Source: Herpetosiphonaceae bacterium (GTDB lineage: Bacteria > Chloroflexota > Chloroflexia > Chloroflexales > Herpetosiphonaceae). Taken from it: a stretch of 30,702 nt of DNA. The first letter of the stretch is position 1, and each line of letters begins with the position of its first letter. Location of the stretch: contig JACCRK010000382.1 in the NCBI GenBank assembly GCA_013813565.1, forward strand, positions 1 to 30,702, read 5' to 3'. The position numbers and the translations under genes are program-made. Below the pieces are notes generated by a model. It was not told the origin of the DNA, searched no databases, and saw nothing but the letters and a program-made list of their open reading frames with translations. Shown here in pieces: positions 5,007-19,111 of the stretch.

Positions 5007-6500
5007 TTATCGCGCATTCTCACCATACAGGCGCTGGCGCAGCGTTGTGATATCGTTGCGCAGCCGGGTATCGGTGGTGATATCCGCAGTAATTTTGTTG
5101 ATCCCATGCATGACCGTGGTGTGATCGCGTCCGCCGAGAAACGCGCCGATCTCAACCAGCGACGCATCGGTCTCCTCACGCAGCAGATACATCGCGACCT
5201 GGCGTGGCAGCACCACGTTGCGGGAGCGGCCGCGGCCCTTGATCGCCCGCTGGTCGATGCTGAAGTGCTGCGAGATCTCGCGGAAAATATCTTCGTGGGT
5301 CACGCGCTTGCGCCGGCTGGTATCGAGCAAATCGGCCAGCGCCGCCGCTGCGACCTCAACCGTGACCGGCGTGCGGCTCAGATTGGCGTAGGCCACCACG
5401 CGGTTGAGGCAGCCCTCCAGCTCGCGAATATTGCTTTGAATTCGGTGGGCCAGAAAATCAATCACATCTGATGAGACCGGCACCTGCAGGGCCTCGCCCT
5501 TGGCGCGCAGAATCGCGGTGCGCGTCTCCAGATCGGGGTTTTGCACATCGACGATCAGGCCCCACTCGAAGCGCGAGCGCAGCCGCTCTTCAAGCGTCAG
5601 GATGGCCTTTGGTGGGCGATCGGAGCTGAGCACAATCTGTTTGCCGGCGCCATGGAGGGTATTGAACGTATGGAAAAATTCTTCCTGGGTGCCTTCTTTG
5701 CCAGCAATAAACTGAATATCATCAATCAGCAAAATATCAATATTACGATAGCGAATACGGAACTCTTCGGTCTGCTGGCGGCGAATCGCATTGATCAGAT
5801 CGTTGGTAAATTTTTCAGAGGAAACATATAAAATATTGATCTCGGGGTTGCGCTCAAGGGCATAGTTGCCGATCGCGTGGAGCAAGTGGGTTTTACCCAG
5901 TCCCACGCCGCCATAGAGAAACAAAGGGTTGTAGGCCTGCGCGGGGTGCTCGGCCACCGCCAGACAGGCGGCGTGGGCCAGGCGGTTGGAGCCACCGACA
6001 ATAAAAGATGAGAAGGTGTAGCGTGAGTTCAACACCGATGAGCGATTGCCCTGCTCACCAAGCTGCATCTGGCCATTGCTTGAGGTCGGCAGCGGCTGGC
6101 CGAGCGCTTCTTTGAACGATGTGCCCAGGCTTGGCAGCGCTGGCTCGGGGATGGCGGCGGCGACCACCTCAGGCGTGGCTACGACGGTCTCACTGAGTGT
6201 GCTTTGGCCATTGCCATTGCCATTGGTATGAATAATGACCCGCACATTTACTGGATAGCCTAGCACATCACCGAGCGAGCGCTTGATTGAGCTCATAAAG
6301 CGATCTTCGATCACTTGCTTGATGCTGGTGTTAGGGGTGCCTAGAACCACCAGATCGCCATTGAGTGCCACCAGCGAGGTCGGCTTCAGCCATAAGTCGT
6401 AATCGTAGCGTACCGTTTGGGCCTGGAGAGCGCTCAACGCGGTATGCCAAATTTGCTTTATATCCAATGAAGCCTCCTCGATGCTGGTGTTATGTTCCAC
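5007..6500 (-). CDS. dnaA: Chromosomal replication initiator protein DnaA
   Basis: AAA+ Walker [17 protein letters not shown], Walker [10 protein letters not shown], sensor/box VII SSDRPP and RSRF are present. The C-terminal DNA-binding domain has [13 protein letters not shown]...[11 protein letters not shown] (DnaA signature). The start is GTG at 6500. Confidence 0.95.
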
Positions 6501-6588
6501 TCGCCATTGAGTAGCCCACGGGTTTGAAAATCAGTCGGCAAAACCGCGCAACGTCGCAGGTTTTGGTGGTTACGGCTAAGCGTTGGCG

Positions 6589-6618
6589 TATGATAGCCGA
6601 TCCTCCTGATCATTTCAA
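6589..6618 (-). promoter_or_regulatory. Putative dnaA promoter (-35 TTGAAA, 18-nt spacer, -10 TATCAT on the minus strand)
   Basis: The reverse complement of 6613-6618 is TTGAAA and the reverse complement of 6589-6594 is TATCAT, with an 18-nt spacer. This would give a 5'UTR of about 80 nt to the GTG at 6500. The site lies between the DnaA-box cluster and the gene. Confidence 0.3.
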
Positions 6619-6689
6619 GGGTGACACCCTGGCGTTTATATAAGTATTGCTTATACTTGCGCTTGTTCAATACCGATAGTTTCTATTGA

Positions 6690-6850
6690 TCAGAGCGGAA
6701 TAATCCACAACTATGTCAATAGCATGGTGCGCTTAATGTGGATAACATTAAAATACTATCCACAAAACGCTTCATTTATCCCTTTGTAATGCGATTGTTC
6801 TCAGCGGAATAAAAAAGGCATTTTGTGGATAGCGGGTGGACGATTGTGGG
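6690..6850. other. oriC core: cluster of four DnaA boxes in an AT-rich region
   Basis: The four boxes are TAATCCACA (6701-6709, +), TGTGGATAA (6737-6745, reverse complement of TTATCCACA), CTATCCACA (6756-6764, +) and TGTGGATAG (6824-6832, reverse complement of CTATCCACA). All are within one mismatch of the TTATCCACA consensus. They are embedded in the most AT-rich stretch of the window (ATAACATTAAAATACTATCC, GGAATAAAAAAGGCATTTT), which could serve as the DNA unwinding element. Confidence 0.6.
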
Positions 6851-6857
6851 AAGCTAT

Positions 6858-7055
6858 TTATGCAGCGCGGCGGCTTGATGATCCCTGATTGATCGAAACG
6901 CTAATCGGCACAACATCTTTCGAGCCACACTGTGGGCATTTGACTTTGGTTGGGAGCGGTCCAGCCACGGCGGTTTCGTGTTTGCAGTGGTTGCATAGCA
7001 GGGTGGTTGTCATAAAATCAGCTACATCTTCATGGGTGGGAGCTGGAATATACAT
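6858..7055 (-). CDS. Small (about 65 aa) zinc-ribbon protein of unknown function
   Basis: Two CxxC pairs about 20 residues apart (CNHCKHE...KCPQCGS) form a classic zinc-ribbon. A GGAG Shine-Dalgarno lies 8 nt upstream of the internal ATG at 7055. The longer ORF back to 7094 has an AT-rich N-terminal extension without an SD. It is on the same strand as, and immediately downstream of, the NACHT gene. Confidence 0.4.
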   Translation of the reverse strand: MYIPAPTHEDVADFMTTTLLCNHCKHETAVAGPLPTKVKCPQCGSKDVVPISVSINQGSSSRRAA

Positions 7056-7156
7056 TGGGTCATCTCCATTGCTTAAATTGTTTGCTGATATCAACTATAG
7101 GCTTTACCGCCCGCGTTGACGAGATCGAGAGATGACAAATCGAGAACAACACCCTT

Positions 7157-10102
7157 CTAATCCTCCTCGCTGACCTGCTGGGCCTCATAGCGCTCAATCA
7201 GCGCCGCCAGCGTTGCCCAGACCAGCCGCTGGCTATAGGCATCAACCTGAGCAAAGCCGGCAAACTCGGCGATCAGCGCCAGGGCCGGGGTTGGATAGGC
7301 GGCATAGGCTGTGACCGCGGCATCACGCACCCGCGCCGATGGGTCGAAAAGCGCCTGGCGGATGACCTCCCAGTGTTCCCCCGCACCAAAGGCCGTCACC
7401 GCCACGCTCCGCATGTCGGGGTCTTCAGCCCTGAGCGCCGGCCGAATCGCCTCCCAATGTCCACCGCTGCCAAACGCGCTAATGGCGGCCCGGCGCACGA
7501 CAGAATGCGGATCGCTCAGCGCCGGTCGAATCGCCTCCCAGTGTTCGCCCGCGCCAAAGGCGCTGACGGCAGCGCTCCGAACGTCATCATCGTGATCGCT
7601 CAGCGCCGCCCGGATCTTGTCCCACTGTTGATGGGCGCCGAACACCTCCACAGCAGCGCGGCGGACCTCCCAGTCGGGATCGTCCAGCGCCGGTTCGACG
7701 GCGGCCCACTCCGGCCCAGTACCAAACGCCTCGACCGCTGCCTCACGCACCGAGACCGATTCATCGTGGAGCGCAAAGCGAATCATCTCCCACTGCTGGC
7801 CGCGCCCAAAGGCATAGACAGCAGCGCTGCGGACCAGGGCGGTCTCGCCAGTCAGCGCCGAGCGAATGTAGCCCCACTGCTGGCTGGCGCCAAAGGCCTC
7901 CACGGCAGTCCGCCGAACCCGTTTAGAGCGATCGCGCAACACTGGCCGAATCGCCTCCCACTGCTGCCCGGCGCTGAAGGCCGCCACCGCCGCCTGGCGG
8001 GTCCACTCGTCGGGATCGCTCAATAGCGGACGGAGCGTTTCCCACTGCTGCGCCACCCCAAACACCTTGATCGCATCCAGATGGACGCCCCCGGCGCGAT
8101 CATTGAGCGCCGGATAGATCGGCTCCAGCGCCAGCCCAAGACATTCGAGGCCGACCAGACCGCTGATTGCCACCACGACCGGCTCGCGGACATGGCCGGT
8201 CCACCACAGCTCCCCGAGCTCGCGGGCAATGGTGCGGGTTAGCGAAGGCTTTACGCCAACATCATCACCTAAAATCGCCGCCGCCAGCAGCAGATCGCGG
8301 TGCAAAATGTCAGGGTAGAGACTGTTGGCGCCGTGAATCGAGCGCACAAATGCGGTGGCTCCGGCCTCATCAGCGTTCATCACGCCAATCTGGCCAGCGG
8401 TCAGCAAGATAACTTCCTGCCAGCCTGGGTTATGCAGATGTGGACGGATGCGGGCAAAACGCTCTTCGGCGGGCAAAACTGCCACGGCGCGGGCGGCAAA
8501 ATACTCCTGAAAGGTCCGATGAATAAAGCCCCAGGCATCAGCCCCACGCTCAACTAGCAGACCGCTATGTTCACGGACATCGATCAGCCACTGCAACGCC
8601 TCACGCTCGGGATCGCTGGCCTCGCGCTCGGTAAAAATCCGCCGCAGCTCGCGCTGAAGCTCGGCAAATCTGGCGGTGCCATCAGGTCTGGCGCTATGCA
8701 GCCATAAGGCCAGCGGCGCCATAACTTTCACCGTATCCAGCACATCCAGCGCTTTCCCGACGATGTGGCCGCTCAGGCTGCGGGCGCGATTCCAGCTTTC
8801 CAGCAGCGTTCGCGCATACAGATCATACAGCTCGATCCGCCGCCGTGGCAGCGATTTACCCTGGCGATGAATCAGCGCCAGAATCGTCAGGAGCAGCGGA
8901 TTGCCCGCCAGCTTGGCCACGCTGGGGTTGGCGTTGATGGCGGTAAACAGGCGCCGTTGCTCGGCGGCAGCCTCGCGGATGGCGTGGCGGGTATCACCGC
9001 GCTGCATCAGCTCGAAGGCCCGGCACCACTGCCGGGTAAAGCGGTCGATCTCAGCTGGGCCGAAATCCAGCAAGGTATAGTGGGGGAACTCCGCCGCCAT
9101 GGGCGCGGCGCGGTAGCCAACAATCCGGCTGGTCAGCACGACACGATTGCCAAGCTGGGTATAGCGGCTGATAAATGTCTGGACCCGCTCGGCGATACTG
9201 CGGCGAATCTCGCTGGACTGGACCTCATCAAGCCCATCGAGCAGCACCAGCACCCGTCCGCTATCCAGGGCTTCCCCGAACAGCGGAGTGAGGCCAGGCA
9301 GCTCGTGCTGTTCGGCGTAATATTGGCCCAGAAACTCAAACAGTGAGCGTGGCTGTTGGGCCAGGGCGGCGCCATAGGCCGCCAGCGGCACCAGAATTGG
9401 CAGGCGGGACTCGGGCATGTTCAAGCGTTCGGCGGCAGCATCTTCGGCGAATGTCAGGGTCAGATAGCGCAACAATGTTGATTTGCCGGCGCCTGGGTCG
9501 CCCAGCACAACCAGGGTTCGATAGTCACGGAGCGCGGTGGTGATATCAACCCGGCGGGGTGTCAGGTTCCAGCGGCGGCGGTTGAGCAGCGCCAGCTCCT
9601 GCTCCAGGTGCTCGTGTTTCGTCGGCCCAGCCTCATGGAGGCGGACGATCAGGCGGCGCTCTTCGGGCGAGACCGTATCGCCCTCGCCCATCTCGCTGGT
9701 GCTTTGCCCGGCGACATACAGCTCGGCGAGCGGCAGCGCGATCGGCTGATTGGTCTGCAGAATACCCTGAAATGTCAGCGAGCGATGGGCCTCGATCAGC
9801 TGTTGGCGATACAGCTGTTCCAGGGCGGCCAGGTCGGCTGCGGTTGGCTGCTGCTCACGCTCGCCGATCAGGACAAAATAGCGGGCCATGCGCTCAAGGA
9901 TCGGATAAAGCGCCTCGCTATACTCATTCTGCTGATACAGATCGCGTCCGGCCAGGTTCGTAATGTTAATGGTGCCGCCGCTGATCGTGAGAGACACCCC
10001 GGTTGTCCGAGCGGCGGCACTTTCCGACTGAAAGGCTCGCACAAGATCGGCAACTGTGATCGTTGTTTCCGCCAACGGCGCATCAGGTGCTTCATCGGCC
10101 AT
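7157..10102 (-). CDS. NACHT-family STAND NTPase with a C-terminal array of about ten PBS-lyase-type HEAT repeats (bacterial NLR-like protein)
   Basis: NACHT motifs are present: Walker A VVLGDPGAGKSTLLRYL (DNA about 9470-9520), Walker B RVLVLLDGLDEV and TSR (VVLTSRIVGY). A pre-NACHT helical region precedes them (LTFQGI...LAELYVAGQS). The C-terminal 330 aa are 31-aa repeats of the form [Q/E][Q/H]WE.IRPAL.D.D..VR.AAV.AFG. A strong GGGAGGGG Shine-Dalgarno lies 3 nt before the ATG at 10102. Confidence 0.85.
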   Translation of the reverse strand: MADEAPDAPLAETTITVADLVRAFQSESAAARTTGVSLTISGGTINITNLAGRDLYQQNEYSEALYPILERMARYFVLIGEREQQPTAADLAALEQLYRQQLIEAHRSLTFQGILQTNQPIALPLAELYVAGQSTSEMGEGDTVSPEERRLIVRLHEAGPTKHEHLEQELALLNRRRWNLTPRRVDITTALRDYRTLVVLGDPGAGKSTLLRYLTLTFAEDAAAERLNMPESRLPILVPLAAYGAALAQQPRSLFEFLGQYYAEQHELPGLTPLFGEALDSGRVLVLLDGLDEVQSSEIRRSIAERVQTFISRYTQLGNRVVLTSRIVGYRAAPMAAEFPHYTLLDFGPAEIDRFTRQWCRAFELMQRGDTRHAIREAAAEQRRLFTAINANPSVAKLAGNPLLLTILALIHRQGKSLPRRRIELYDLYARTLLESWNRARSLSGHIVGKALDVLDTVKVMAPLALWLHSARPDGTARFAELQRELRRIFTEREASDPEREALQWLIDVREHSGLLVERGADAWGFIHRTFQEYFAARAVAVLPAEERFARIRPHLHNPGWQEVILLTAGQIGVMNADEAGATAFVRSIHGANSLYPDILHRDLLLAAAILGDDVGVKPSLTRTIARELGELWWTGHVREPVVVAISGLVGLECLGLALEPIYPALNDRAGGVHLDAIKVFGVAQQWETLRPLLSDPDEWTRQAAVAAFSAGQQWEAIRPVLRDRSKRVRRTAVEAFGASQQWGYIRSALTGETALVRSAAVYAFGRGQQWEMIRFALHDESVSVREAAVEAFGTGPEWAAVEPALDDPDWEVRRAAVEVFGAHQQWDKIRAALSDHDDDVRSAAVSAFGAGEHWEAIRPALSDPHSVVRRAAISAFGSGGHWEAIRPALRAEDPDMRSVAVTAFGAGEHWEVIRQALFDPSARVRDAAVTAYAAYPTPALALIAEFAGFAQVDAYSQRLVWATLAALIERYEAQQVSEED
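7200..8180. repeat. Imperfect tandem DNA repeat of about 93 bp, roughly ten copies, encoding the HEAT-repeat array
   Basis: A recurring DNA unit such as ...GCTCAGCGCCGG(C/T)CGAATCGCCTCCCA(G/A)TG... appears at a period of about 93 bp (for example 7437-7463, 7521-7547, 7940-7965), matching the 31-aa protein period. Confidence 0.6.
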
Positions 10103-10123
10103 TGTCCCCTCCCTTCTGGAGAA

Positions 10124-10492
10124 CTACTGCTGAGCGATGGGCTGGATCTGATAGCCTGGGAATGTGCTTAGATCCAGTGCGCCCTGGCCGGTCTGCAGAT
10201 CGGGCGGGATACGCTGCAAGCATTCCAGCACAAACCCCCGCAATGCCGCGACATCGATCTGCTGGTGGACTGGCTCGTAGGCGGCCAGCAGATCGTGGGC
10301 GGTCTGCAGTAAAAAACGCGGGCTGGTGATCAGTCCCAGGCGAAGCTGATTGAGGGCCACGCAGACGCGAATCAAGCCCTTATAAAAATCAGCGCGCTCA
10401 ACAAACCACAGCTTCTCCAGCGCCAGCACGCCTTCAACATACTCGCTGCGGTTAAAACAGTGGACAAAATGCTGCCAGCTGGCATCGCTCAT
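10124..10492 (-). CDS. DUF309-like small protein (divergent; the conserved His of the FNxGxYxEAHE motif is replaced), first gene of the NACHT operon
   Basis: The 122-aa product has HCFNRSEYVEGVLALEKLWF...GLIRVCVALNQLRLG, which resembles the DUF309 signature (FN.G.YFEAHE.LE.LW) as I recall it. A GAGGT Shine-Dalgarno lies 5 nt before the ATG. Its stop is 21 nt upstream of the NACHT start, and the NACHT SD lies inside that gap, implying co-transcription. Confidence 0.55.
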   Translation of the reverse strand: MSDASWQHFVHCFNRSEYVEGVLALEKLWFVERADFYKGLIRVCVALNQLRLGLITSPRFLLQTAHDLLAAYEPVHQQIDVAALRGFVLECLQRIPPDLQTGQGALDLSTFPGYQIQPIAQQ

Positions 10493-10528
10493 GGCCTACC
10501 TCAGGTCTTGCTAAATCTTGCTGGCGTG

Positions 10529-10557
10529 AGTCTAGCCGACGGCGATTGGTGCGTCAA
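10529..10557 (-). promoter_or_regulatory. Putative promoter of the DUF309-NACHT operon (-35 TTGACG, 17-nt spacer, -10 TAGACT on the minus strand)
   Basis: The reverse complement of 10552-10557 is TTGACG and the reverse complement of 10529-10534 is TAGACT, with a 17-nt spacer. The site lies in the divergent intergenic region shared with the ABC transporter promoter. Confidence 0.3.
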
Positions 10558-10625: not shown

Positions 10626-10653
10626 TTTGACACAAGGCACGATTTCGTTATAA
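10626..10653 (+). promoter_or_regulatory. Near-consensus sigma70 promoter of the ABC transporter operon (TTGACA, 16-nt spacer, TATAAT)
   Basis: TTGACA at 10626-10631, a 16-nt spacer, then TATAAT at 10648-10653. A 5' leader of about 140 nt follows, ending in a consensus AGGAGG Shine-Dalgarno (10790-10795) 5 nt before the ATG at 10801. Confidence 0.55.
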
Positions 10654-10800
10654 TGAAGTTCTAAATAGTCCTCATTCGCACTATATCCAGATTCAAACAC
10701 CTTGAAAGGGGGTGGTATCCCAGACAACAATTGACCAGCGCAGTGTTTTTTTACGCTGTGATGTTCGTTTCTTGGACTATCTACTTTTTAGGAGGTTACA

Positions 10801-12765
10801 ATGCTTCGTTCGAAGCGCCAAATCGTGAGCTTCTTGCTCATGTTGGTACTCTTGGTTCCTGTGCTCGCCGCTTGTGGTGGTACCACCGCAACAACTGCAC
10901 CTGCCACGACTGCTCCCGCTGTTGCTACAACTGCACCAACTTCAGATACTGCTCAGGCTCCAACCGCTGTTGCAACGGAAGCTGCACCAGTTGCAACGGA
11001 AGCTGCTCCAACAGTTGCGCCTACCGAAGTCGCCGCCACTGTTGAGCCAACCGCTGCCCCTGGTGGCGCTGGCCCAGACGCCAACAAAACCATCATCGTT
11101 GGTATGACCCAGTTCCCCGACACCCTGTTCGGGATTGAGTCACAGTCAAGCGCCACCACCCAGGTGTTGGCCGCAATTCAGCCAGCCTGTATCACCACGC
11201 TGAGCTACGAATATCAGCCAGTCTGTTTCGAAAAAGTCCCCGCATTTGCCGATGGCGATGCTGTGACCGAAACCGTCACTGTTGATAACACCTACGAAGG
11301 CAATATCGTGATCAACGATGAGCTGATCACCGATACCACCACCCTGACCGAGTCACTTGATCTGACCCAGGTCCAGGTAACCTGGAAACTCATTGAGGGT
11401 TTGACCTGGGAAGATGGCGAGCCGGTCAAGGCCAGCGACTTCGTGTTTGCTGCCAACCTGTACCAGGATCCAGGCATCCAGAACGCTTCACGCTTCACCC
11501 TTGACCGCACCCAGAAGTTCGAAGCCCCAGATGAATCAACCATCGTTTGGTATGGCGCTCCTGGCTACAGCGATGCCACCTACTTCTTGAACGTTTTCGG
11601 CCCTGAGCCAGAGCACGTTCTTGGCTCGGAAGACCCGGCCACCATTGGCAGCAGCGAGTACGCTAGCCAGCCGCTGGCCTACGGCCCCTACAAAATTGTC
11701 GAGAACGTTCCCCAGGAAAGCACCACCCTGGTTGCCAACGAAACCTACTGGAAAGCCAGCGAAGGCTTCCCCAAAGTTGGCAACATCGTCTTCAAGTATC
11801 TGACCAGCGAAGATCAAGTGCTGCAGCAGCTTGAAGGCGGCGAGATCGACGTCGTTGGTTCGATTGGCCTGACCCTGGCCAACGCCCCAGCTCTTGATGA
11901 CCTGGAAGCTGCTGGCAAAGCAGTCGGCCAGTACGTCCCGGCAACCGTGTGGGAGCACATGGACTTCGCCGTTGAGCGTGGCGATGGTCAAGAGTCCTTC
12001 TTCACCGATGCGAACGTTCGCAAAGCCGTCGCGTACGGCATCAATCGTCAGGAAATCATCGACCAAGTGCTGTTCGGCAAAACCGTCACGATGAACAGCT
12101 TCCTGCCCGACACCCACTGGGCTTATCCACCGAATGGTGAAGGCCTCGAAGCCTACGAGTATGACACCGCCATGTCGGCCGAGCTGCTTGATGCTGCTGG
12201 CTGGACCCTTGGTGCTGACGGCATCCGTGAAAAAGATGGCCGCAAGTTCCAGGTACAGATGTTCACCACCGAAGGCAACGCAACCCGCCAGGCAGTGGTC
12301 CAGATCATTCAGGAAAACCTGAAAGAAGTTGGCATTGACGTCGTGTTGAACTTCGTTCCCGCCACCGCCGTTCTGTTCAAGAACGGTGCCGATGGTGTTC
12401 TCTCAGGCCGTACCTATGACCTGGGTATGTACGCCTGGGTCAGTGGCTCCGAGCCATCAACCGCCCTGTATCTCTGTGATCAAATCCCGACCCCAGAGAA
12501 CAGCTACGCCGGCCAGAACAACACCGGCTGGTGTAACCCAGAGTACGATGTATCTGCTCTGGCCTCACAGTCGGCCACCGAGCGAGCTGATCGTATTCCG
12601 TTGGTCATCGAAGCTCAGAAAGTCTTCAACGATCAGCTGCCAACCCTCCCGCTGTATCAGCGCGTGAACCTCGGCGCATATCGACCTGCTGTTACCGGTC
12701 TCCAGCTTGACCCAACCAGCCAGGTTGACTTCTGGAACATCGAAACCTGGGATATCTCGGAGTAA
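10801..12765 (+). CDS. ABC transporter substrate-binding lipoprotein, family 5 (DppA/OppA/NikA-like), with a Pro/Thr/Ala-rich linker
   Basis: A signal peptide with lipobox LAAC|GG is followed by a low-complexity linker (TTATTAPATTAPAVATTAPTSDTAQAPTAVATEAAPVATEAAPTVAPTEVAATVEPTAAP) and then an SBP_bac_5-like body (WEDGEPVKASDFVF, FKYLTSEDQVLQQLEGGEIDVV). Confidence 0.9.
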   Translation: MLRSKRQIVSFLLMLVLLVPVLAACGGTTATTAPATTAPAVATTAPTSDTAQAPTAVATEAAPVATEAAPTVAPTEVAATVEPTAAPGGAGPDANKTIIVGMTQFPDTLFGIESQSSATTQVLAAIQPACITTLSYEYQPVCFEKVPAFADGDAVTETVTVDNTYEGNIVINDELITDTTTLTESLDLTQVQVTWKLIEGLTWEDGEPVKASDFVFAANLYQDPGIQNASRFTLDRTQKFEAPDESTIVWYGAPGYSDATYFLNVFGPEPEHVLGSEDPATIGSSEYASQPLAYGPYKIVENVPQESTTLVANETYWKASEGFPKVGNIVFKYLTSEDQVLQQLEGGEIDVVGSIGLTLANAPALDDLEAAGKAVGQYVPATVWEHMDFAVERGDGQESFFTDANVRKAVAYGINRQEIIDQVLFGKTVTMNSFLPDTHWAYPPNGEGLEAYEYDTAMSAELLDAAGWTLGADGIREKDGRKFQVQMFTTEGNATRQAVVQIIQENLKEVGIDVVLNFVPATAVLFKNGADGVLSGRTYDLGMYAWVSGSEPSTALYLCDQIPTPENSYAGQNNTGWCNPEYDVSALASQSATERADRIPLVIEAQKVFNDQLPTLPLYQRVNLGAYRPAVTGLQLDPTSQVDFWNIETWDISE

Positions 12766-12787
12766 CTTCCGCACTATCTTGGGAACC

Positions 12788-12838
12788 GGCGAAGGAGTGG
12801 GGCTATGGCCTCGCTCCTTCGCCTAAAAAGCTCTTTTT
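12788..12838 (+). terminator. Putative intrinsic terminator or attenuator after the binding-protein gene
   Basis: A 10-bp stem, GGCGAAGGAG (12788-12797) paired with CTCCTTCGCC (12814-12823), is followed by TAAAAAGCTCTTTTT (an AU-rich mini-hairpin and T-run). Partial termination after abundant binding-protein genes is common. Confidence 0.4.
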
Positions 12839-13041
12839 CCGCCTCGAACCAGCCTGAAATTAAAGTCGGCACATCCTATTTAATCTGCCCGGTGAGATGA
12901 TGCCTAAATCTAAATCCTCAGTTAGACGCTGCTGACAATGTGTTTTGAACAAAACTGGTCGCTTGAAATTGAACAAAATCTGAAATATGTAGTGTTAACC
13001 AGTGAAGTGATTTCTATCTTTTCTTTCAACCTACGAGGTGT

Positions 13042-14109
13042 GTGATGACGGTCTACCTTATTCGCCGGTTCTTTCAGATTATTGTTGTGCTGTTTCTCTC
13101 GACTGCGGTGATCTATACCCTCTTTGCGCTGGCCCCGAACCCGCTCGATGAGCTGCGGCAGAGCACCGATCCTAAAGCTCAGGCATCAAATGCAGATATC
13201 GCGCGCTTATCTAAACAGCTTGGTCTAGACAAGCCCTGGTTTTTGCAGTATCCAGTCTGGCTGGCCGGTGATACCTGGCTGGATTCGATTGGCTATGGCC
13301 AATTTGTTGGCGATCGTATGGGTATCTTGCGTGGTGACTGGGGCACATCGTGGAAGTATCAGAAAAATAAACCGGTGCTTGGCCTGATTAAAGATCGTCT
13401 GCCAGCAACCTTGTGGCTGATGGTCAGCTCGACCTTGATCTCTCTAATGATTGGTATTCCGCTCGGCGTTTTCTCGGCGGTCCGCCAATATTCATTTTTT
13501 GACTACTTTTTTACTTCGTTCAGCTTTATCGGGATCTCTATTCCCGCCTTCTGGTTTGGGCTGCTGATTATTTCAGCCTCGCTGGTCGCTAAAAATAAAG
13601 GCTGGTTCTACTTTCCAGCCGGCGACGTTCTCGCCATTCGTGATTACAAAGTGCCGCTGCTAGGGATGGTGGAGGCCGGCTCATTCCTTGACCGGGTTAT
13701 GCATCTGGTGATGCCGGTTACCGTGCTGTCGCTGCTGAACCTGGCTGGCTGGAGCCGCTTTATGCGCGCCAGCATGCTGGAAGTGCTGAGCCAGGACTAC
13801 GTGCGCACTGCCCGCGCCAAGGGTGTCCGCGAGCGAATCGTCATCTATAAGCATGCCTTTCGGAATGCCTTGATTCCGCTGATTACCCTGGTTGTATTTG
13901 CCATTCCAGGCGTCTTTGGTGGCGCAATCCTGACCGAACGAGTGTTCAACTACAAAGGTCTGGGCTTCTTGTTTATTAGCGCGCTTAACTTAAACGATTA
14001 CCCGCTGGCCATGGCCTTCCTGCTGATCTCTTCGATCTTGCTGGTGCTGGCTACATTGCTGGCTGATATTCTGTATACCTTTGTTGATCCACGGATTCGC
14101 CTTGACTAA
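13042..14109 (+). CDS. ABC transporter permease, DppB/OppB-like
   Basis: Six or more TM helices are visible, and the EAA-like loop has YVRTARAKGVRERIVIYKHAFRNAL. A GAGGTG Shine-Dalgarno precedes the ATG. Confidence 0.9.
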   Translation: MMTVYLIRRFFQIIVVLFLSTAVIYTLFALAPNPLDELRQSTDPKAQASNADIARLSKQLGLDKPWFLQYPVWLAGDTWLDSIGYGQFVGDRMGILRGDWGTSWKYQKNKPVLGLIKDRLPATLWLMVSSTLISLMIGIPLGVFSAVRQYSFFDYFFTSFSFIGISIPAFWFGLLIISASLVAKNKGWFYFPAGDVLAIRDYKVPLLGMVEAGSFLDRVMHLVMPVTVLSLLNLAGWSRFMRASMLEVLSQDYVRTARAKGVRERIVIYKHAFRNALIPLITLVVFAIPGVFGGAILTERVFNYKGLGFLFISALNLNDYPLAMAFLLISSILLVLATLLADILYTFVDPRIRLD

Positions 14110-14173
14110 GCCCTGGCGCCGTCTTACGCGGTCTACGATTCTGTAATATCCTTTGTCTGAAAGGCACACCATA

Positions 14174-15139
14174 ATGGCAGTTACAAATACCCAGCTTGAG
14201 GCGCGTGAGGTCGCAAAAGAAGAATATCAGCATCCCTGGCTCGATATTGCCAAACGGTTTATGCGGCACCGCCTGGCAATCGGCAGCTTAATCGTGATGT
14301 CCCTAATTATTTTGTCGGTGTTTATTGGGCCATTGTTTTCGCCCTTTACCGAACGCTCCCAATCACCCCGCCAAAAGAACCTGGCTCCATTAAGCACATT
14401 TCAGGTTGATAAAGAAATTCGTAACATTGATAACACTGTGCGCACACCAGCCGGTGGCACGGCTACAGCCTTCTTTGGCACCGATGAAATCGGCCGTGAC
14501 CTGCTAACCCGCTTGTTGTATGCCGGACGTGTATCGTTGTATATTGCATTTGCTGTGACCCTGCTTAGCGAGATCATTGGCGTAACGATTGGCGTTATCA
14601 GTGGCTATTTCGGTGGCTTTGTTGACACCATGGCAATGCGCTTTGTTGACTTTCTCAACACCTTGCCGCTCCTGCCGATCCTCCTGATTATTACAACCAT
14701 CATCAAGCCAAGCATTAACTTTCTGATCGTGATTCTAGTGTTCTTCAGCTGGACCGGTGGCGCCCGCTTGATGCGGGGACAAATTTTGAGCTTACGTGAA
14801 CAAGAATATGTTTCGGCCTCGCGGGCGCTCGGCGCTTCAAATATCCGCATTATGTTTCGTCACCTGGTACCAAATGCAATTGCGCCCAATATCGTCAATG
14901 CCTCGCTGAGCTTGAGCGGTGTCATGATTACCGAAGCGGCCTTGAGCTTCCTTGGCTTCGGCGTGAAACTCCCGGCCGCCTCATGGGGCAATATGCTTAA
15001 GGATGTAAACCTGTCTATTCTGGAAACTTATCCCTGGCAGGCCTTCTTCCCTGGGTTTGCGATTTTCATCTGTTCGCTGTGCTTCAACTTTATTGGCGAT
15101 GGCTTGCGTGACGCGCTTGACCCGCGTGCTAAACGTTAA
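14174..15139 (+). CDS. ABC transporter permease, DppC/OppC-like
   Basis: TM helices are present, and the conserved loop has YVSASRALGASNIRIMFRHLVPNAIAP. The ORF is open from a TTG at 14153, but the first ATG at 14174 is the more likely start. Confidence 0.85.
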   Translation: MAVTNTQLEAREVAKEEYQHPWLDIAKRFMRHRLAIGSLIVMSLIILSVFIGPLFSPFTERSQSPRQKNLAPLSTFQVDKEIRNIDNTVRTPAGGTATAFFGTDEIGRDLLTRLLYAGRVSLYIAFAVTLLSEIIGVTIGVISGYFGGFVDTMAMRFVDFLNTLPLLPILLIITTIIKPSINFLIVILVFFSWTGGARLMRGQILSLREQEYVSASRALGASNIRIMFRHLVPNAIAPNIVNASLSLSGVMITEAALSFLGFGVKLPAASWGNMLKDVNLSILETYPWQAFFPGFAIFICSLCFNFIGDGLRDALDPRAKR

Positions 15140-15178
15140 AGCGGCTTGATAATTGGTTTTTCTAGATAGGGGCATATT

Positions 15179-16147
15179 GTGGCTCAATCAGATGTCTTGC
15201 TGAAGATCAAAGGCGTGAAGACGTATTTCTACACCGAAGAAGGGGTCGTTCACGCGGTTGATGGTTTGGATTTTCAGGTACGACGCGGTGAAACACTCGG
15301 CATTGTGGGCGAGTCTGGCTGTGGTAAAAGTGTTACCTCTATGTCCATTCTGCGTTTGCTGGGCAAAACAGGGAAAATTGTCGAAGGTGAAATTATCTTC
15401 GACAATGAAAATATGCTTGAGCTCAACGAAGAAGAGATGCGGAAAATTCGTGGGAACCGCATTTCAATGATTTTCCAGCAGCCAACAACATGTCTCAACC
15501 CGGTGTTCCGCATTGGTGATCAGGTCATGGAGGCGCTGGAAATCCATCAGGGGTTATCCGGTTCTGAGGCCCGTAAGCGGGCGATCGAGCTGTTTGTCCT
15601 GGTCGGTATCCCCGATCCGGCCCGCCGCATGCGCTCGTTTCCCCACGAGATCTCTGGCGGCCAGGCCCAGCGCGTGATGATCGCGATGGCGCTGGCCTGT
15701 AACCCGGAGCTGCTGATCGCTGATGAGCCAACCACCGCACTTGACGTAACTATTCAGGCGCAGATTTTGGATTTGATGCGCGAGCTACGCGAAAAAGTAA
15801 ACACTGCCATCATTCTGATCACCCACGACCTGGGGGTGATCGCCGAGATGGCCGAAAATGTGATGGTGATGTACGCTGGAAAAGCCGTTGAGTACGCTCC
15901 GGTTGAGCAGCTCTTTGCCGCACCGAAACACCCCTATACCCAGGGGCTGATCGCTTCAACTCCAATCTTAGGCGTGGTTCGCGATGAGCTGGCCACGATT
16001 CCTGGGCAGGTTCCCAGCCTGCTTAATCCACCGAAAGGCTGTCGTTTTGCGCCACGGTGTGCATATCGCATGGATCAATGTAGTGAAGAAGAGCCACCGT
16101 TGATCAAACTCGAAGGCGATCGATTGGTGCGTTGTTGGCTCTATTAG
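15179..16147 (+). CDS. ABC transporter ATP-binding protein, DppD/OppD-like
   Basis: Walker [11 protein letters not shown], signature LSGGQAQRV, Walker [13 protein letters not shown] and an oligopeptide-transporter C-terminal extension (CRFAPRC...C) are present. The start is GTG with an AGGGG Shine-Dalgarno. Confidence 0.9.
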
Positions 16148-16163
16148 AAAAACTTGAGGATCT

Positions 16164-17183
16164 GTGATGACTGTTTCTCCGCTAAACACGACTGCACCAA
16201 CGGTGGCTGCCACTACTCAGGATACATTGTTAGAAGTTCGTGATCTTAAAAAGCATTTTCCAATCAAGGGCGGTATCCTGCGCCGGACGGTAGCCAATGT
16301 TAAGGCGCTTGATGGCGTCAGCTTTGCCATCAAGCGGGGTGAAACCCTGGGCCTGGTCGGTGAGTCGGGCTGTGGTAAAACCACCACCGGCCGCACGGTT
16401 CTCCGCCTCATCCAGGCGACCTCGGGCGAGGTCAAATTTGAAAATCAGGATGTTATGAAGGCCGGCCGCGCGGAAATGCGCAAGCTGCGCCGCGACATGC
16501 AGATTGTCTTTCAAGACCCGTATGCGTCGTTAGACCCACGGGTTCCGGTCGGGGTGAGCATTGCTGAAGGGCTGCGGATTCACGAGATTGGCAACGATAA
16601 AGAGCAGCGCGATCGGGTCAAGGTGGTGCTGGAGCGGGTCGGCATGAATGCCACCCACATGCGCCGTTTCCCCCACGAGTTCTCCGGCGGTCAGCGCCAG
16701 CGCATTGGCATTGCTCGGGCACTGGTGATGCAGCCCAAGCTGATCGTCTGCGATGAGCCAGTCTCGGCCCTCGATGTTTCCATCCAGGCCCAGGTCTTGA
16801 ACTTGCTCAAGGATTTGCAGGAAGATCTTGGCCTGACCTATCTGTTTATCGCCCATAATCTGAGCGTGGTTGAGCATATCAGCGATCGGGTTGGCGTGAT
16901 GTATCTCGGCCGCATGGTCGAGCTGGCCAGCCGCGATCAGCTCTTCAGCCACCCGATGCATCCCTATACCAAAGCCTTGATGTCGGCGATTCCGCTGCCA
17001 GACCCGACCATCAAGCGCGAGCGGATTATCTTGCAGGGCGATGTTCCCAGCCCGGTCAATCCGCCCAGTGGCTGCTACTTCCACCCACGCTGCTGGCTGG
17101 CCCAGGAAGTCTGCAAGCAAGAGGATCCGGTCTTCGAGGAGAAGGAGCCCGGCCACTGGGCGGCCTGCCACTTCGCGCAGTAG
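16164..17183 (+). CDS. ABC transporter ATP-binding protein, DppF/OppF-like
   Basis: Walker [11 protein letters not shown], signature FSGGQRQRI, Walker [13 protein letters not shown] and a C-terminal Cys/His-rich tail ([14 protein letters not shown]) are present. Confidence 0.9.
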
Positions 17184-17216
17184 CCAGCTTTTCTTCGCAC
17201 CATGCCCCATAGTCTA

Positions 17217-17246
17217 GGCGCTGATCATTCGTGATCGGCGCCTTTT
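17217..17246 (+). terminator. Intrinsic terminator after the second ATPase gene
   Basis: GGCGCTGATC (17217-17226) and GATCGGCGCC (17233-17242) form a 10-bp stem with one G.U pair. The loop is ATTCGT, and TTTTCGTT follows. Confidence 0.55.
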
Positions 17247-17347
17247 CGTTCGACAAAAAGCACTGGCTGCGGTAGACTGCCCGGTGGTCAAAAACTGCTC
17301 CAGCGGTGACTTACTGGGCCGCTGTGTTTAGAGATAAAGGTGACTCC

Positions 17348-19111
17348 ATGAAACAACGCTCTCCATCTCGTTTGCTCCTCCTGGTCCTGCTGGCGCTGTT
17401 AGGCGCATGTGGTCTCGAAGGCGGCGCTGTGCAGCCAACCCCGCCGCCAGCGGTGCCAACGCCAACCCAGGCCCCAACCGCCGATCCAAAAAATCAGGGC
17501 TGGATCGTTGGCCTGACCGAGGAGCCGCTTGATCTTTACCCCTACAGCTATGCCGCGCGCACGGCTTCAGCCTTGCTGGAGCTGCTGTATCCGGCACCAT
17601 TGCAGATTGTCAACGAAGCCTATACCACCACCGGCGTGCTAGAGCGGGTTCCGTCGTTTGAGAATGGTGATGTTGCCTATGTCAACACCAGCGCCTATCT
17701 TGACCCAACCGGCGCCATAACCCAGACCAAGACCGATGTGATCACCAGCGTCCGCCAGCTGACGGTCACCTATCGCTGGAACAAAAATTTGCGCTGGTCA
17801 GATGGTACACCCCTGACTGCCCAGGACTCGGTTTTTGCCTATAATCTGCTCAAAGGCAGCGCCTCAACCCCACAGATTGCGATTCAGAGCGACCTGACGG
17901 CCGACTATGTGACCATCGATGATCACACGACCAAGGCCTATTTGCCACCGCTCCGCGATGAGCCAAACTATCTGGAGACGGTCTGGATTCCGCTGCCCCG
18001 CCATAAATTTGCTGAAGATACTACCGCGCAGGCCGTCAATGATACGCTGGCCCGCCAGCCACTTGGCTATGGACTGTATCGGCTGGAGGCCTGGATCGAG
18101 GGGCGGGAGTTGAATTTTATCCGCTCTGACACGGCGCTCGATCCAGCTATTCCCGCGAAGCTGACCGTACGTCTCTACCCCGATCTCTCGACCTTGCGCG
18201 ATGACGTCTTAAGCAGTCGGGTTGATGTGGCCTGGACTGAACAAATGCCCGATACTATCGCCGCCAGTCTGCAGGCCGATACGCGGGCCAAAACGCTCCA
18301 GTCCTGGATGATTCCCACGCCGATCTGGGAGCATATCGATATGAATCTGGCGGTGGTTGCCCTGCAAGATATTCGGATGCGGCACGCGCTGGCCTACGGT
18401 TTTGATCGTGCCGGCCTCAGCACCAGCATCTACGGCGCCGATCAGGCCGTCTGGGATAGCTGGATCGCGCCAACGTCGTGGGCCTATGGCGGCACTGCCA
18501 TAAGCCGCTATACCTACGATCCGGATAAAGCCCGTGGATTGCTCGATGAGATGGGCTACACGGATACTGATGGTGATGGCCTGCGGGAAAATCCCGCAGG
18601 TGCCCTGTTTGCCCTCAAGCTGGTGACCAGCGAACAAACCGCGCTGCGCGAGATCATCAGCGACCGTTTTATTGCCAATATGGCCGACATTGGCCTGAGG
18701 ATTGAGCTGGAGACGGTGCCAACCCAGGATCTGTACAGCCAGCAGGGACCGCTCTTTCAGCGCCGCTTTGAGCTGGCCCTCTTCGGCTGGCTGCGGGCGC
18801 TTGACCCTGATGGCGCGGTGCTATGGAGCTGTGCCGCCATTCCTAACCAGGTCAATAACTTTACCGGCGACAACTTTACCGGCTGGTGCATCGACACCGC
18901 CGATCAGGCCATTCGAACCGCCACCGGCTCGCTGGACCAGACGGTGCGCAAGAACGCCTATATCGAGCATCAACAAATTTTCACCCGCGAGCTACCGATC
19001 TTACCGGTTATCACACGCCAGATGACCGTCCTGGCCCGGCCAAGTATTCAGGGCCTTCAGCCTGAGACCTTTGCTCCACCCACCTGGAACATCCAGCACT
19101 GGCAGCGCTAA
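17348..19111 (+). CDS. Second family-5 ABC substrate-binding lipoprotein
   Basis: Signal peptide and lipobox (MKQRSPSRLLLLVLLALLGAC|GL) followed by an SBP_bac_5-like body. An AAAGGTGA Shine-Dalgarno precedes the ATG at 17348. The ORF track's 17306 start adds 14 residues without an SD. Confidence 0.85.
   Translation: MKQRSPSRLLLLVLLALLGACGLEGGAVQPTPPPAVPTPTQAPTADPKNQGWIVGLTEEPLDLYPYSYAARTASALLELLYPAPLQIVNEAYTTTGVLERVPSFENGDVAYVNTSAYLDPTGAITQTKTDVITSVRQLTVTYRWNKNLRWSDGTPLTAQDSVFAYNLLKGSASTPQIAIQSDLTADYVTIDDHTTKAYLPPLRDEPNYLETVWIPLPRHKFAEDTTAQAVNDTLARQPLGYGLYRLEAWIEGRELNFIRSDTALDPAIPAKLTVRLYPDLSTLRDDVLSSRVDVAWTEQMPDTIAASLQADTRAKTLQSWMIPTPIWEHIDMNLAVVALQDIRMRHALAYGFDRAGLSTSIYGADQAVWDSWIAPTSWAYGGTAISRYTYDPDKARGLLDEMGYTDTDGDGLRENPAGALFALKLVTSEQTALREIISDRFIANMADIGLRIELETVPTQDLYSQQGPLFQRRFELALFGWLRALDPDGAVLWSCAAIPNQVNNFTGDNFTGWCIDTADQAIRTATGSLDQTVRKNAYIEHQQIFTRELPILPVITRQMTVLARPSIQGLQPETFAPPTWNIQHWQR

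What the first reader, a model, noticed from the sequence alone, without database searches (positions are those of the whole stretch)
6858..10557. Origin-adjacent three-gene operon DUF309-like, NACHT-HEAT STAND NTPase, zinc-ribbon: a candidate NLR-like defence or signalling system
Three co-oriented genes are packed tightly on the minus strand. The DUF309-like gene ends 21 nt before the NACHT start, and the strong NACHT Shine-Dalgarno lies inside that gap. The zinc-ribbon ORF starts about 60-100 nt after the NACHT stop. Bacterial NACHT and other STAND NTPases with C-terminal repeat sensors are an established class of antiphage immune proteins (bacterial NLR-like and Avs families). The accessory partners seen here, a divergent DUF309-like protein lacking the family's conserved His and a 65-aa CxxC...CxxC zinc-ribbon, are not components I recognise from described systems. 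The N-terminal region of the NACHT protein is about 60-140 aa with no recognisable catalytic motif, so the effector function, if there is one, might reside in the small partner proteins instead. Placement right next to oriC and dnaA is unusual for accessory defence loci.
Basis: partly seen in the sequence, partly recalled or inferred. Interest (0 to 1): 0.75.

Follow-up and report, generated by a model that had tools for sequence, protein, structure and literature searches.

The report
Lone NLR-like gene inserted beside oriC
The three genes are real, but they are not a three-part system: a single NLR-like sensor ATPase gene sits between two small genes that stay adjacent without it in related bacteria, so this is an ordinary new member of a known family.

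Summary
A 122-aa DUF309-like gene, a 981-aa NACHT-HEAT gene and a 65-aa zinc-ribbon gene lie on the minus strand next to a DnaA-box cluster and dnaA. The "three-gene system" reading fails its own refutation test. In four related Herpetosiphonaceae lineages (L087, L093, L094, L096) the DUF309 gene is followed directly, 97-208 nt later, by the zinc-ribbon gene and then dnaA, with no NACHT. Three further lineages have DUF309 in another context, also without NACHT. The nearest NACHT relatives (42-44% identity) have neither small gene nearby, and three of the four contexts examined hold restriction-type genes. The NACHT-bearing loci form one clade. The extra DNA is about 2.97 kb: the ORF, 21 nt upstream and about 8 nt downstream. 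It ends just before a conserved promoter-like block belonging to the zinc-ribbon gene. The NACHT protein is intact and models as NLRC4/NOD2-like. It is under purifying selection (dN/dS 0.12) and has ten 28-aa HEAT-like repeats. Residues 1-67 are unmodelled, have no detectable homologues outside the orthologue and contain no effector domain. Most likely it is a solo, lineage-specific NLR-like sensor, probably for conflict or defence, with an unknown output. It is a new member of a known kind and of low interest.

The parts
7157..10102 (-). NACHT-HEAT STAND NTPase gene (981 aa). This is the lineage-specific gene.
   Evidence: ORF. Pfam NACHT at aa 195-361 plus HEAT. AF2 model pLDDT 82.6. Foldseek top hits are NLRC4, NOD2 and NLRP3. 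dN/dS against the L004 orthologue is 0.12 with no indels.
7149..10123 (-). Approximate extent of the DNA present in NACHT+ loci and absent from NACHT- loci (about 2.97 kb): the ORF, a 21-nt leader with SD, and about 8 nt of trailer.
   Evidence: Junction sequences and alignment. The DUF309-to-zinc-ribbon spacing is 3068 nt here against 97-208 nt in L087, L093, L094 and L096.
9902..10102 (-). NACHT aa 1-67: low-confidence, strand-rich N-terminal segment with no effector domain.
   Evidence: pLDDT is below 50 for residues 1-67. There is no Pfam hit. Among 1.84 billion representatives only the orthologue matches, plus two proteins that carry a repeated match to aa 25-64.
9476..9502 (-). Walker A motif (GDPGAGKST, aa 201-209).
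   Evidence: G201, P203, G204, G206, K207 and T209 are invariant in the 40-sequence alignment.
9224..9250 (-). Walker B motif (LVLLDGLDE, aa 285-293).
   Evidence: L287, D289, G290, L291, D292 and E293 are invariant.
7259..8098 (-). HEAT-like repeat array: ten units of 28 aa (aa 669-948), the predicted sensor.
   Evidence: Pfam HEAT/HEAT_2. alphaRep hits in PDB. TRF finds an 84-bp period. Unit register and 51% mean identity between units.
10124..10492 (-). DUF309-like gene (122 aa). It is a conserved clade gene, divergently transcribed from the peptide ABC-transporter operon and independent of NACHT.
   Evidence: Pfam. 22 homologues. AF2 pLDDT 91 with best PDB match 2IJQ, a DUF309 structure. 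Contexts without NACHT.
10529..10557 (-). Promoter-like site upstream of DUF309 (TTGACG-17-TAGACT). It is the likely source of NACHT transcription by read-through.
   Evidence: Consensus scan. No promoter-like or terminator-like site lies between DUF309 and NACHT.
6858..7055 (-). Zinc-ribbon gene (65 aa), a conserved neighbour of the origin region and independent of NACHT.
   Evidence: Homologue P0143 at 89% identity. Orthologues in L004, L087, L093, L094 and L096 share invariant CxxC..CxxCGS, GPLP and a C-terminal RRAA.
7092..7148 (-). Conserved non-coding block upstream of the zinc-ribbon gene. It includes promoter-like TCGTCA-17-TATAGT at 7122-7094 and begins about 8 nt after the NACHT stop.
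   Evidence: Alignment A3 has invariant columns in NACHT+ and NACHT- loci alike. Promoter scan.
6701..6832 (.). DnaA-box cluster (4 boxes) between the zinc-ribbon gene and dnaA: the oriC or dnaA-promoter region.
   Evidence: One search places 4 of the window's 7 matches here. Sequence read.
5007..6500 (-). dnaA
   Evidence: ORF. 78-80% identical DnaA lies directly downstream of the zinc-ribbon gene in L087 and L093.

Best explanation
The locus is a conserved Herpetosiphonaceae gene order: peptide ABC-transporter operon, divergent DUF309-like gene, zinc-ribbon gene, DnaA-box cluster, dnaA. In one sub-clade a single NACHT-HEAT gene lies between the DUF309 stop codon and the zinc-ribbon gene's own promoter block.

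Shown:
- Presence/absence of NACHT among relatives.
- The boundaries of the extra DNA.
- Both small genes occur without NACHT.
- The NTPase motifs are intact.
- The model has an NLR-like fold.
- The gene is under purifying selection.
- There is no folded or known N-terminal effector.

Inferred:
- The gene has no promoter of its own, so it is transcribed by read-through from the DUF309 promoter. That makes it a positional operon, not a functional one.
- It works as a stand-alone NLR-like switch. The 28-aa HEAT-like solenoid would bind a ligand, NACHT would exchange nucleotide and oligomerise, and the short N-terminal segment would be brought together to signal to a partner encoded elsewhere, or to act directly.
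- Family relationships and the restriction-type genes around its nearest relatives make the role most likely conflict or antiphage sensing. This was not tested and the output is unknown.
For: Presence/absence:
- NACHT+ loci are the window, L001 (=L092) and L004. NACHT- loci with DUF309 followed by the zinc-ribbon gene and dnaA are L087/88/89, L093, L094 and L096.
- DUF309 sits in other contexts without NACHT in L005, L006, L113, L090 and L095.
- tblastn finds no NACHT remnant (E<=1) in any NACHT- locus. The DUF309-to-zinc-ribbon spacing there is 97-208 nt, against 3068-3093 nt in NACHT+ loci.
- NACHT+ loci are monophyletic in the DUF309 and SBP neighbour-joining trees. In the SBP tree the NACHT- lineages are paraphyletic to them.

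Independence of the zinc-ribbon gene:
- Its conserved promoter-like block is retained in both locus types.

The NACHT protein:
- Pfam NACHT plus HEAT, invariant Walker A/B, AF2 pLDDT 82.6 with NLRC4/NOD2/NLRP3 as top structural matches, and dN/dS 0.12.
- Residues 1-67 have pLDDT below 50. Beyond the orthologue, the N-terminus matches only a repeat unit in two unrelated proteins.

Relatives:
- Relatives at 42-44% identity sit beside HNH, an EVE-AAA_5 McrB-like protein (PADLOC PDC-M26A), XhoI/Eco57I-type restriction-modification genes, DUF3800 and T5orf172.
- Bacterial NACHT proteins with HEAT, TPR, LRR or FGS sensors are a described class and several defend against phage (Kibby et al., bioRxiv 10.1101/2022.07.19.500537, read).
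Against: - There is no effector domain and no partner nearby, so the output step is conjecture.
- No PADLOC defence family matches the NACHT part. The only hit is a partial HEAT-ARM_XIII match. The EruA model scores 38 bits against a cut-off of 1000.
- The gene lies in a housekeeping neighbourhood rather than a defence island.
- It has been stably inherited without indels in its repeat array across lineages about 15% diverged in DNA. That is less typical of fast-turnover immune genes.
- One relative, P0014, also sits in a metabolic context.
- Gain versus loss is not fully resolved. The DUF309 tree alone makes NACHT+ and NACHT- sister clades.
- All loci are metagenome contigs, and no complete genome of the clade could be inspected.
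Confidence: 0.72

Rival explanations
1. DUF309-like, NACHT-HEAT and zinc-ribbon form one three-gene NLR-like defence or signalling system, in which the small proteins supply the effector or accessory function.
For: The genes are tightly packed and co-oriented. DUF309 and NACHT are 21 nt apart with a strong SD and no intervening promoter or terminator. NACHT lacks an effector domain. The trio is conserved in L004, and DUF309 plus NACHT in L001 and L092.
Against: All trio-bearing loci are close relatives (84-86% nucleotide identity), in which shared gene order is expected anyway. DUF309 and the zinc-ribbon gene stay adjacent without NACHT in 4 lineages, and DUF309 occurs alone in 5 more. NACHT relatives never have these neighbours. 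The zinc-ribbon gene has its own conserved promoter-like block. No motif is shared between the NACHT N-terminus and either protein: alignment scores fall below the shuffle mean. Neither small protein hits a defence family.
Confidence: 0.05
2. NACHT-HEAT was ancestral at this position and was lost cleanly from the NACHT-less lineages, rather than inserted in one sub-clade.
For: In the DUF309 tree the NACHT+ clade and the L087/L093/L094 clade are sisters, so one loss is as parsimonious as one gain within that pair. NACHT GC3 (0.72) is typical of host genes. No mobile-element scars flank the gene.
Against: The SBP tree places L093 outside (L087 + NACHT+), which would require two or more independent precise deletions. 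Deeper lineages (L005, L006, L113) also lack NACHT. No NACHT remnants remain in any NACHT- locus. The nearest NACHT homologues outside the clade are only 42-44% identical and sit in unrelated contexts.
Confidence: 0.15
3. The NACHT-HEAT protein is not an antiphage gene. It is instead a cellular signalling or regulatory STAND of a filamentous, multicellular, predatory bacterium, for example in kin or self recognition, developmental cell death or stress signalling.
For: There is no effector domain and no PADLOC family hit. The gene sits in a housekeeping neighbourhood, is under strong purifying selection and shows no repeat-number change between lineages. NACHT and other NLR-like proteins are enriched in multicellular bacteria.
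Against: The nearest relatives sit among restriction-type genes. The gene is lineage-specific rather than core. No DNA-binding or other regulatory output domain is present.
Confidence: 0.2
4. Secondary co-option. After insertion, the NACHT protein came to monitor or act on the origin-proximal DUF309 and zinc-ribbon proteins, as guardees or outputs, linking sensing to replication control.
For: The evidence is only positional: probable co-transcription with DUF309, and placement about 300 nt from the DnaA-box cluster.
Against: No shared motif. No co-evolution signal was detected or examined beyond sequence identity. Both small genes look the same in NACHT- lineages, with the same invariant residues.
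Confidence: 0.04

Closest known systems
Bacterial NLR-related NACHT proteins (bNACHT; Kibby et al. 2022/2023, bioRxiv 10.1101/2022.07.19.500537)
   Same: It has a central NACHT module with intact Walker A/B, a C-terminal array of structural repeats (HEAT is one of the listed 'antigen-receptor-type' sensors), and is a single-polypeptide STAND. It occurs in a filamentous multicellular lineage. The model resembles NLRC4, NOD2 and NLRP3.
   Different: There is no recognisable N-terminal effector or adaptor domain: aa 1-67 are unmodelled and have no detectable homologues outside the orthologue. It matches no PADLOC NACHT model. It is not in a defence island. Defence activity is untested.
NACHT-HEAT relatives P0003, P0004 and P0005 (1078-1080 aa, 42-44% identity; metagenomic)
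   Same: They share the NACHT, helical and HEAT-like architecture and align over 86-88% of the query.
   Different: They carry an extra helical N-terminal region of about 100 aa. They are tightly linked to other genes: a 393-aa HNH_4 protein upstream, or a 199-aa multi-TM protein downstream. They sit among McrBC-like and restriction-modification genes. The window protein has none of these.
Avs / AVAST antiviral STAND NTPases (named in papers read)
   Same: They follow the general STAND logic of a repeat sensor, an NTPase switch and oligomerisation.
   Different: By my recollection, Avs proteins carry N-terminal nuclease, protease or other effectors and belong to different STAND clades. No PADLOC Avs model matched.
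Bell-domain/NLR amyloid signalling pairs (BASS; Dyrka et al., bioRxiv 10.1101/2020.01.06.895854)
   Same: A small gene lies immediately upstream of an NLR-like gene in a filamentous bacterium, and the NLR N-terminus is short and strand-prone.
   Different: The upstream protein has a DUF309 fold, not a Bell domain. It shares no motif with the NACHT N-terminus. It exists unchanged in NACHT-less relatives.
Pfam DUF309 (PF03745; structures 2IJQ, 2CWY)
   Same: The 122-aa protein passes the Pfam threshold and its AF2 model best matches 2IJQ.
   Different: It lacks the family's His in the HxxxExxW motif (Val here). It forms a narrow Herpetosiphonaceae/Chloroflexaceae subfamily of 22 sequences. No paper in the held library describes a function for the family.

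Membership tests
Bacterial NLR-related NACHT proteins | NACHT NTPase module with Walker A (GxxxxGK[ST]) and Walker B (hhhhDGLDE) | tested here: met
   Pfam NACHT scores 42.2 bits against a cut-off of 26.7. GDPGAGKST and LVLLDGLDE are invariant across 40 homologues. The fold matches NLRC4, NOD2 and NLRP3.
Bacterial NLR-related NACHT proteins | C-terminal sensor made of tandem repeats or an FGS domain | tested here: met
   Ten 28-aa HEAT-like units span aa 669-948.
Bacterial NLR-related NACHT proteins | N-terminal effector or effector-associated adaptor domain | tested here: not met
   Residues 1-67 have pLDDT below 50. There is no Pfam hit. Beyond the orthologue, the exhaustive search returned only a repeat-unit match in two unrelated proteins.
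Bacterial NLR-related NACHT proteins | Protection against phage, dependent on the NTPase | not testable with these tools
   This needs expression, phage challenge and a K207A control.
Known defence-system catalogues (PADLOC v2; NCBIfam antiphage models) | Full-length match to a catalogued defence protein model | tested here: not met
   In PADLOC the only strong hit is HEAT-ARM_XIII over the HEAT region (1.4e-13); the others are weak P-loop matches. NCBIfam EruA scores 38 bits against 1000 and DS8 scores 14 bits against 790.
Multi-gene defence system (DUF309 + NACHT + zinc-ribbon) | The components co-occur across genomes beyond close relatives | tested here: not met
   DUF309 and the zinc-ribbon gene are adjacent without NACHT in L087, L093, L094 and L096. 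DUF309 is alone in L005, L006, L113, L090 and L095. NACHT relatives lack both small genes.
Multi-gene defence system (DUF309 + NACHT + zinc-ribbon) | Single transcription unit | tested here: inconclusive
   For DUF309 and NACHT, the gap is 21 nt and no promoter-like or terminator-like site lies between them. The zinc-ribbon gene has its own conserved promoter-like block. No RNA data are available.
Bell/BASS amyloid-signalling NLR pairs | The same short motif at the C-terminus of the adjacent small protein and the N-terminus of the NLR, with a Bell domain in the partner | tested here: not met
   Local alignment scores of NACHT aa 1-85 against DUF309 and the zinc-ribbon protein fall below the shuffle means. 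The partner has a DUF309 fold.
Pfam DUF309 (PF03745) | Profile match above the gathering score, and a helical-bundle fold | tested here: met
   28.7 bits against 27. AF2 pLDDT is 91.2 and the best PDB match is 2IJQ, TM 0.65-0.68.
Pfam DUF309 (PF03745) | Conserved His of the HxxxExxW motif | tested here: not met
   That position is Val22 here and V/I/L in all 22 homologues. E26 and W29 are invariant.
Zinc-ribbon proteins | Two CxxC knuckles conserved among orthologues | tested here: met
   CxxC...CxxCGS is invariant in six orthologues. No individual Pfam or NCBIfam zinc-ribbon family reaches its cut-off.

The most novel reading that the evidence does not exclude
This would be an effector-less NACHT-HEAT sensor that has joined the DUF309 transcription unit beside the replication origin. 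It would signal through its orphan, strand-prone 67-aa N-terminus, either as a new oligomerisation or amyloid-type signalling motif with a partner encoded elsewhere, or by acting on the origin-proximal DUF309 and zinc-ribbon pair to couple threat sensing to replication initiation.
Probability: 0.05. Interest if true: 0.7.

Novelty: new member of a known kind. Interest (0 to 1): 0.2.

Why it matters
The main value is corrective. Tight spacing and shared orientation made three genes look like a new NLR-type system, but comparison with relatives shows one accessory gene wedged between two conserved neighbours. The locus is a clean natural example of a single STAND gene present or absent with almost no flanking DNA, apparently using a host promoter. 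The protein adds to the bacterial NACHT-HEAT proteins that have no recognisable effector, whose output mechanism is still unknown. The conserved order DUF309, zinc-ribbon gene, DnaA-box cluster, dnaA, together with the invariant non-coding block, may be of minor interest to people who study Chloroflexota replication origins.

Tried and rejected
- **Genome-contig scan with DnaA.** I hoped to see what lies upstream of dnaA in Herpetosiphonaceae genomes. The patterns were too general: 600 or more hits, none from the family, best 58% identity. The 80 loci served only as a negative control, with no DUF309 or zinc-ribbon gene near dnaA elsewhere.\n- **metagenome-contig scan with the DUF309 alignment.** It returned only 5 loci, but four of them were informative.\n- **Exact look-up of the window's NACHT protein.** Not on record.\n- **BASS or EAD-style motif pairing.** I tested the NACHT N-terminus against both small proteins and rejected pairing.\n- **Target-site duplication at the junctions.** A 6-nt GTTCTC occurs at both junctions in the window but not in L001 or L004. 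I judged it chance.\n- **Foreign base composition.** NACHT GC3 is 0.72, within the range of the window's other genes, so this is uninformative.\n- **Known RNA families in the window.** None found.\n- **Viral contigs.** Only distant NACHT relatives, at most 32% identity, so no vehicle was identified.\n- **Adaptor pairing in a relative.** By eye, the N-terminus of P0005 resembles the adjacent 199-aa TM protein. BLASTP does not support this (E=0.21).\n- **Literature on DUF309 function.** Nothing useful. No papers on EruA were found.

Full report
**Source and observation**

The window is a 30.7-kb contig of a Herpetosiphonaceae metagenome-assembled genome, according to the source's name for the identical protein P0001.
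- a 122-aa gene at 10124-10492;
- a 981-aa gene at 7157-10102;
- a small ORF at 6858-7094, which is 78 aa from TTG or 65 aa from the ATG at 7055.

The DUF309 stop and the NACHT ATG are 21 nt apart, and GGGAGGGG lies in that gap. The NACHT stop is 62 nt from the TTG and 101 nt from the ATG of the small ORF.

DUF309 is just above threshold at 28.7 bits against 27. NACHT (aa 195-361) scores 42.2 bits against 26.7. The HEAT families score 76-82 bits. The small ORF gets only sub-threshold zinc-ribbon matches.

dnaA lies at 5007-6500. Four of the window's seven near-consensus DnaA boxes cluster at 6701-6832, between dnaA and the small ORF.

**Do the three genes belong together?**

Contexts of DUF309 homologues. 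The DUF309-like protein has only 22 homologues, all with Herpetosiphonaceae or Chloroflexaceae labels where a label exists. Their genomic contexts fall into four types.
1. DUF309, then NACHT-HEAT, then the zinc-ribbon gene where the contig reaches that far. This type comprises the window, L001 (=L092) and L004. They are 84-86% identical to the window in DNA over 5.4-6.6 kb.
2. DUF309 followed after only 97-208 nt by a 66-72-aa zinc-ribbon orthologue, then DnaA boxes and dnaA, with no NACHT. This type comprises L087/L088/L089, L093, L094 and L096. DnaA there is 78-80% identical to the window's, and the solute-binding protein (SBP) is about 76-85% identical, depending on the aligned stretch.
3. 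DUF309 followed by ORF11_beta, DinB_2 and MBOAT_2 genes: L005, L006 and L113.
4. Unrelated contexts: L090/L091 and L095.

tblastn with the NACHT protein finds nothing (E<=1) in any locus of types 2-4.

Contexts of NACHT relatives. Outside the close clade, the nearest NACHT-HEAT relatives are 42-44% identical (P0003, P0004, P0005). A fourth relative, P0014, was also examined.
- None has a DUF309 or zinc-ribbon neighbour. The loci with DNA were searched by tblastn; the P0004 contig and one P0005 contig have no DNA, and their gene tables list no DUF309.
- P0003 and P0004 are preceded by a 393-aa HNH_4 protein and followed by UDG and/or an EVE-AAA_5 McrB-like protein (PADLOC PDC-M26A) with a PD-(D/E)xK partner.
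- P0005 lies near T5orf172, XhoI/Eco57I-type restriction-modification genes and DUF3800.
- P0014 lies among metabolic genes.

**Anatomy of the difference**

The junctions were aligned. In every lineage the zinc-ribbon gene is preceded by a conserved block (window 7092-7148). Its consensus is TGTTCTCGATTTGTCATCT...TCTCG...CTATAGT.G. It includes a promoter-like TCGTCA-17-TATAGT, followed by GGAG and the ATG.

In the window this block starts about 8 nt after the NACHT stop codon. Upstream, the NACHT ATG follows the DUF309 stop by 21-26 nt in all NACHT+ loci. The extra DNA is therefore about 2.97 kb (roughly 7149-10123) and is essentially the ORF with its Shine-Dalgarno sequence.
- There is no integrase.
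- There are no flanking repeats conserved among NACHT+ loci.
- Composition is not unusual: GC3 is 0.72, within the window's range.
- No promoter-like or terminator-like site lies between DUF309 and NACHT. A promoter-like site sits upstream of DUF309 at 10557-10529.

I infer that NACHT is expressed by read-through from the DUF309 promoter and that the zinc-ribbon gene keeps its own promoter. There are no RNA data, so this remains inference.

**Gain or loss?**

NACHT+ loci form one clade in neighbour-joining trees of both DUF309 and the SBP. In the SBP tree, L093 branches outside (L087 + NACHT+). In the DUF309 tree the two groups are sisters, with the NACHT-less L005 and L006 as outgroups. One gain is the most parsimonious reading. 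A clean loss cannot be excluded, and I give it about 0.15. Either way, the two small genes do not depend on NACHT.

**The NACHT-HEAT protein itself**

- Walker A (GDPGAGKST, aa 201-209) and Walker B (LVLLDGLDE, aa 285-293) are invariant across 40 family members.
- The AF2 model has mean pLDDT 82.6 and pTM 0.72. It shows a confident pre-NACHT helical/strand region from about aa 84, then the NACHT module, helical and winged-helix modules, and a HEAT solenoid.
- Residues 1-67 are below pLDDT 50, with only short predicted strands.
- Foldseek against the PDB puts NLRC4, NOD2 and NLRP3 first.
- The repeat array has a 28-aa (84-bp) period with ten units (aa 669-948) and 51% mean identity between units. 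It matches alphaRep-type HEAT-like repeats.
- Against the L004 orthologue, dN/dS is 0.12 overall and 0.14 in the HEAT array, with no indels. This is a functional, stably inherited gene.

The first 80 residues were searched exhaustively against 1.84 billion representatives. Only the orthologue was found, plus two unrelated proteins in which aa 25-64 match a repeated unit. The N-terminus is therefore not a known effector or adaptor.

The N-terminus also shows no similarity to DUF309 or the zinc-ribbon protein beyond shuffled controls. This rules out the matched-motif logic of Bell/BASS or effector-associated-domain pairs (for the definition).

Within the wider family, N-termini vary. They include NNH2, TIR, metallophosphatase, kinase and helical extensions, and many members carry FGE-sulfatase sensors instead of HEAT. 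This matches the published picture of bacterial NLR-related proteins.

No PADLOC or NCBIfam defence model matches at family level.

**The small proteins**

The DUF309-like protein models confidently (pLDDT 91.2) as a helical bundle. Its best PDB match is the DUF309 structure 2IJQ. No function for DUF309 is reported in the library I could search.

The zinc-ribbon ORF is a real gene. Six orthologues share CxxC...CxxCGS, GPLP and a C-terminal RRAA. Neither DUF309 nor the zinc-ribbon gene is found near dnaA in 80 loci from other Chloroflexota and other phyla.

**Verdict**

The locus contains a lone, lineage-specific NACHT-HEAT (NLR-like) gene between two conserved origin-proximal genes. It is not a three-component system.

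Mechanistically, I consider it most likely a stand-alone STAND switch: ligand binding by the HEAT solenoid, NTP-dependent oligomerisation, and output through the short N-terminus or a partner encoded elsewhere. Family relationships and the restriction-type genes around its nearest relatives point to conflict or defence. The output step and the defence role are inferred, not shown.

It is a new member of a known kind, and interest is low (0.2). The most novel reading the evidence does not exclude is an orphan N-terminal signalling motif, or secondary coupling to the origin-proximal pair. I give that about 5%.

Noticed in passing
window 7092-7148 (-); also L004, L087, L093, L094, L096: A non-coding block of about 57 nt upstream of the zinc-ribbon gene has many invariant positions across lineages whose flanking intergenic DNA is otherwise unalignable. 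It contains a promoter-like TCGTCA-17-TATAGT. The invariant upstream half (TGTT..C.ATTTGTCATCT) is unexplained and could be an operator or an origin-related site.
   Followed up: partly
window 5007-10492; L087 10001-12537; L093; L094; L096: The order DUF309, zinc-ribbon gene, DnaA-box cluster, dnaA is conserved in several Herpetosiphonaceae lineages and absent near dnaA in 80 loci from other taxa. The zinc-ribbon protein has an invariant C-terminal RRAA and a GPLP motif. Any link of this pair to replication was not examined.
   Followed up: partly
window 7259-8098 (-): The HEAT-like array has an unusually short 28-aa (84-bp) period. It has ten units with 51% mean identity, and repeat number is unchanged between the window and L004.
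   Followed up: yes
L098 2055-3236; L002 5952-6551; L097 7245-7988: Relatives of the NACHT gene have tightly linked, variable partner genes. One is a 393-aa HNH_4 protein about 9 nt upstream. One is a 199-aa multi-TM protein 2 nt downstream, whose N-terminal helix resembles the NACHT N-terminus by eye but not by BLASTP (E=0.21). One is a 247-aa upstream protein with a weak NNH2 hit, possibly a split N-terminal domain.
   Followed up: partly
window 9911-10030 (-) (NACHT aa 25-64): This strand-prone segment (…GVSLTISGGTINITNLAGRDLYQQ…) matches a unit repeated 10 times in a 1701-aa MopE/T9SS-tail protein (P0144) and 6 times in a 551-aa Helicase_C protein (P0145). That suggests a beta-solenoid-like repeat motif rather than a domain.
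   Followed up: partly
window 10627-10654 (+): A perfect sigma-70 consensus (TTGACA-16-TATAAT) lies ahead of the divergently transcribed peptide ABC-transporter operon (10801-19111).
   Followed up: no
window 26045-29596 (+): This is a 1183-aa protein with very many TPR repeats from about aa 390 onward. At E<=1e-5 its N-terminal ~390 aa had no Pfam hit. Its start overlaps the end of the preceding gene by 4 nt.
   Followed up: no
L005 12506-13668: In one NACHT-less relative, an IS605-family OrfB/TnpB-like gene sits a few genes downstream of DUF309, showing that this neighbourhood is rearranged in some lineages.
   Followed up: no
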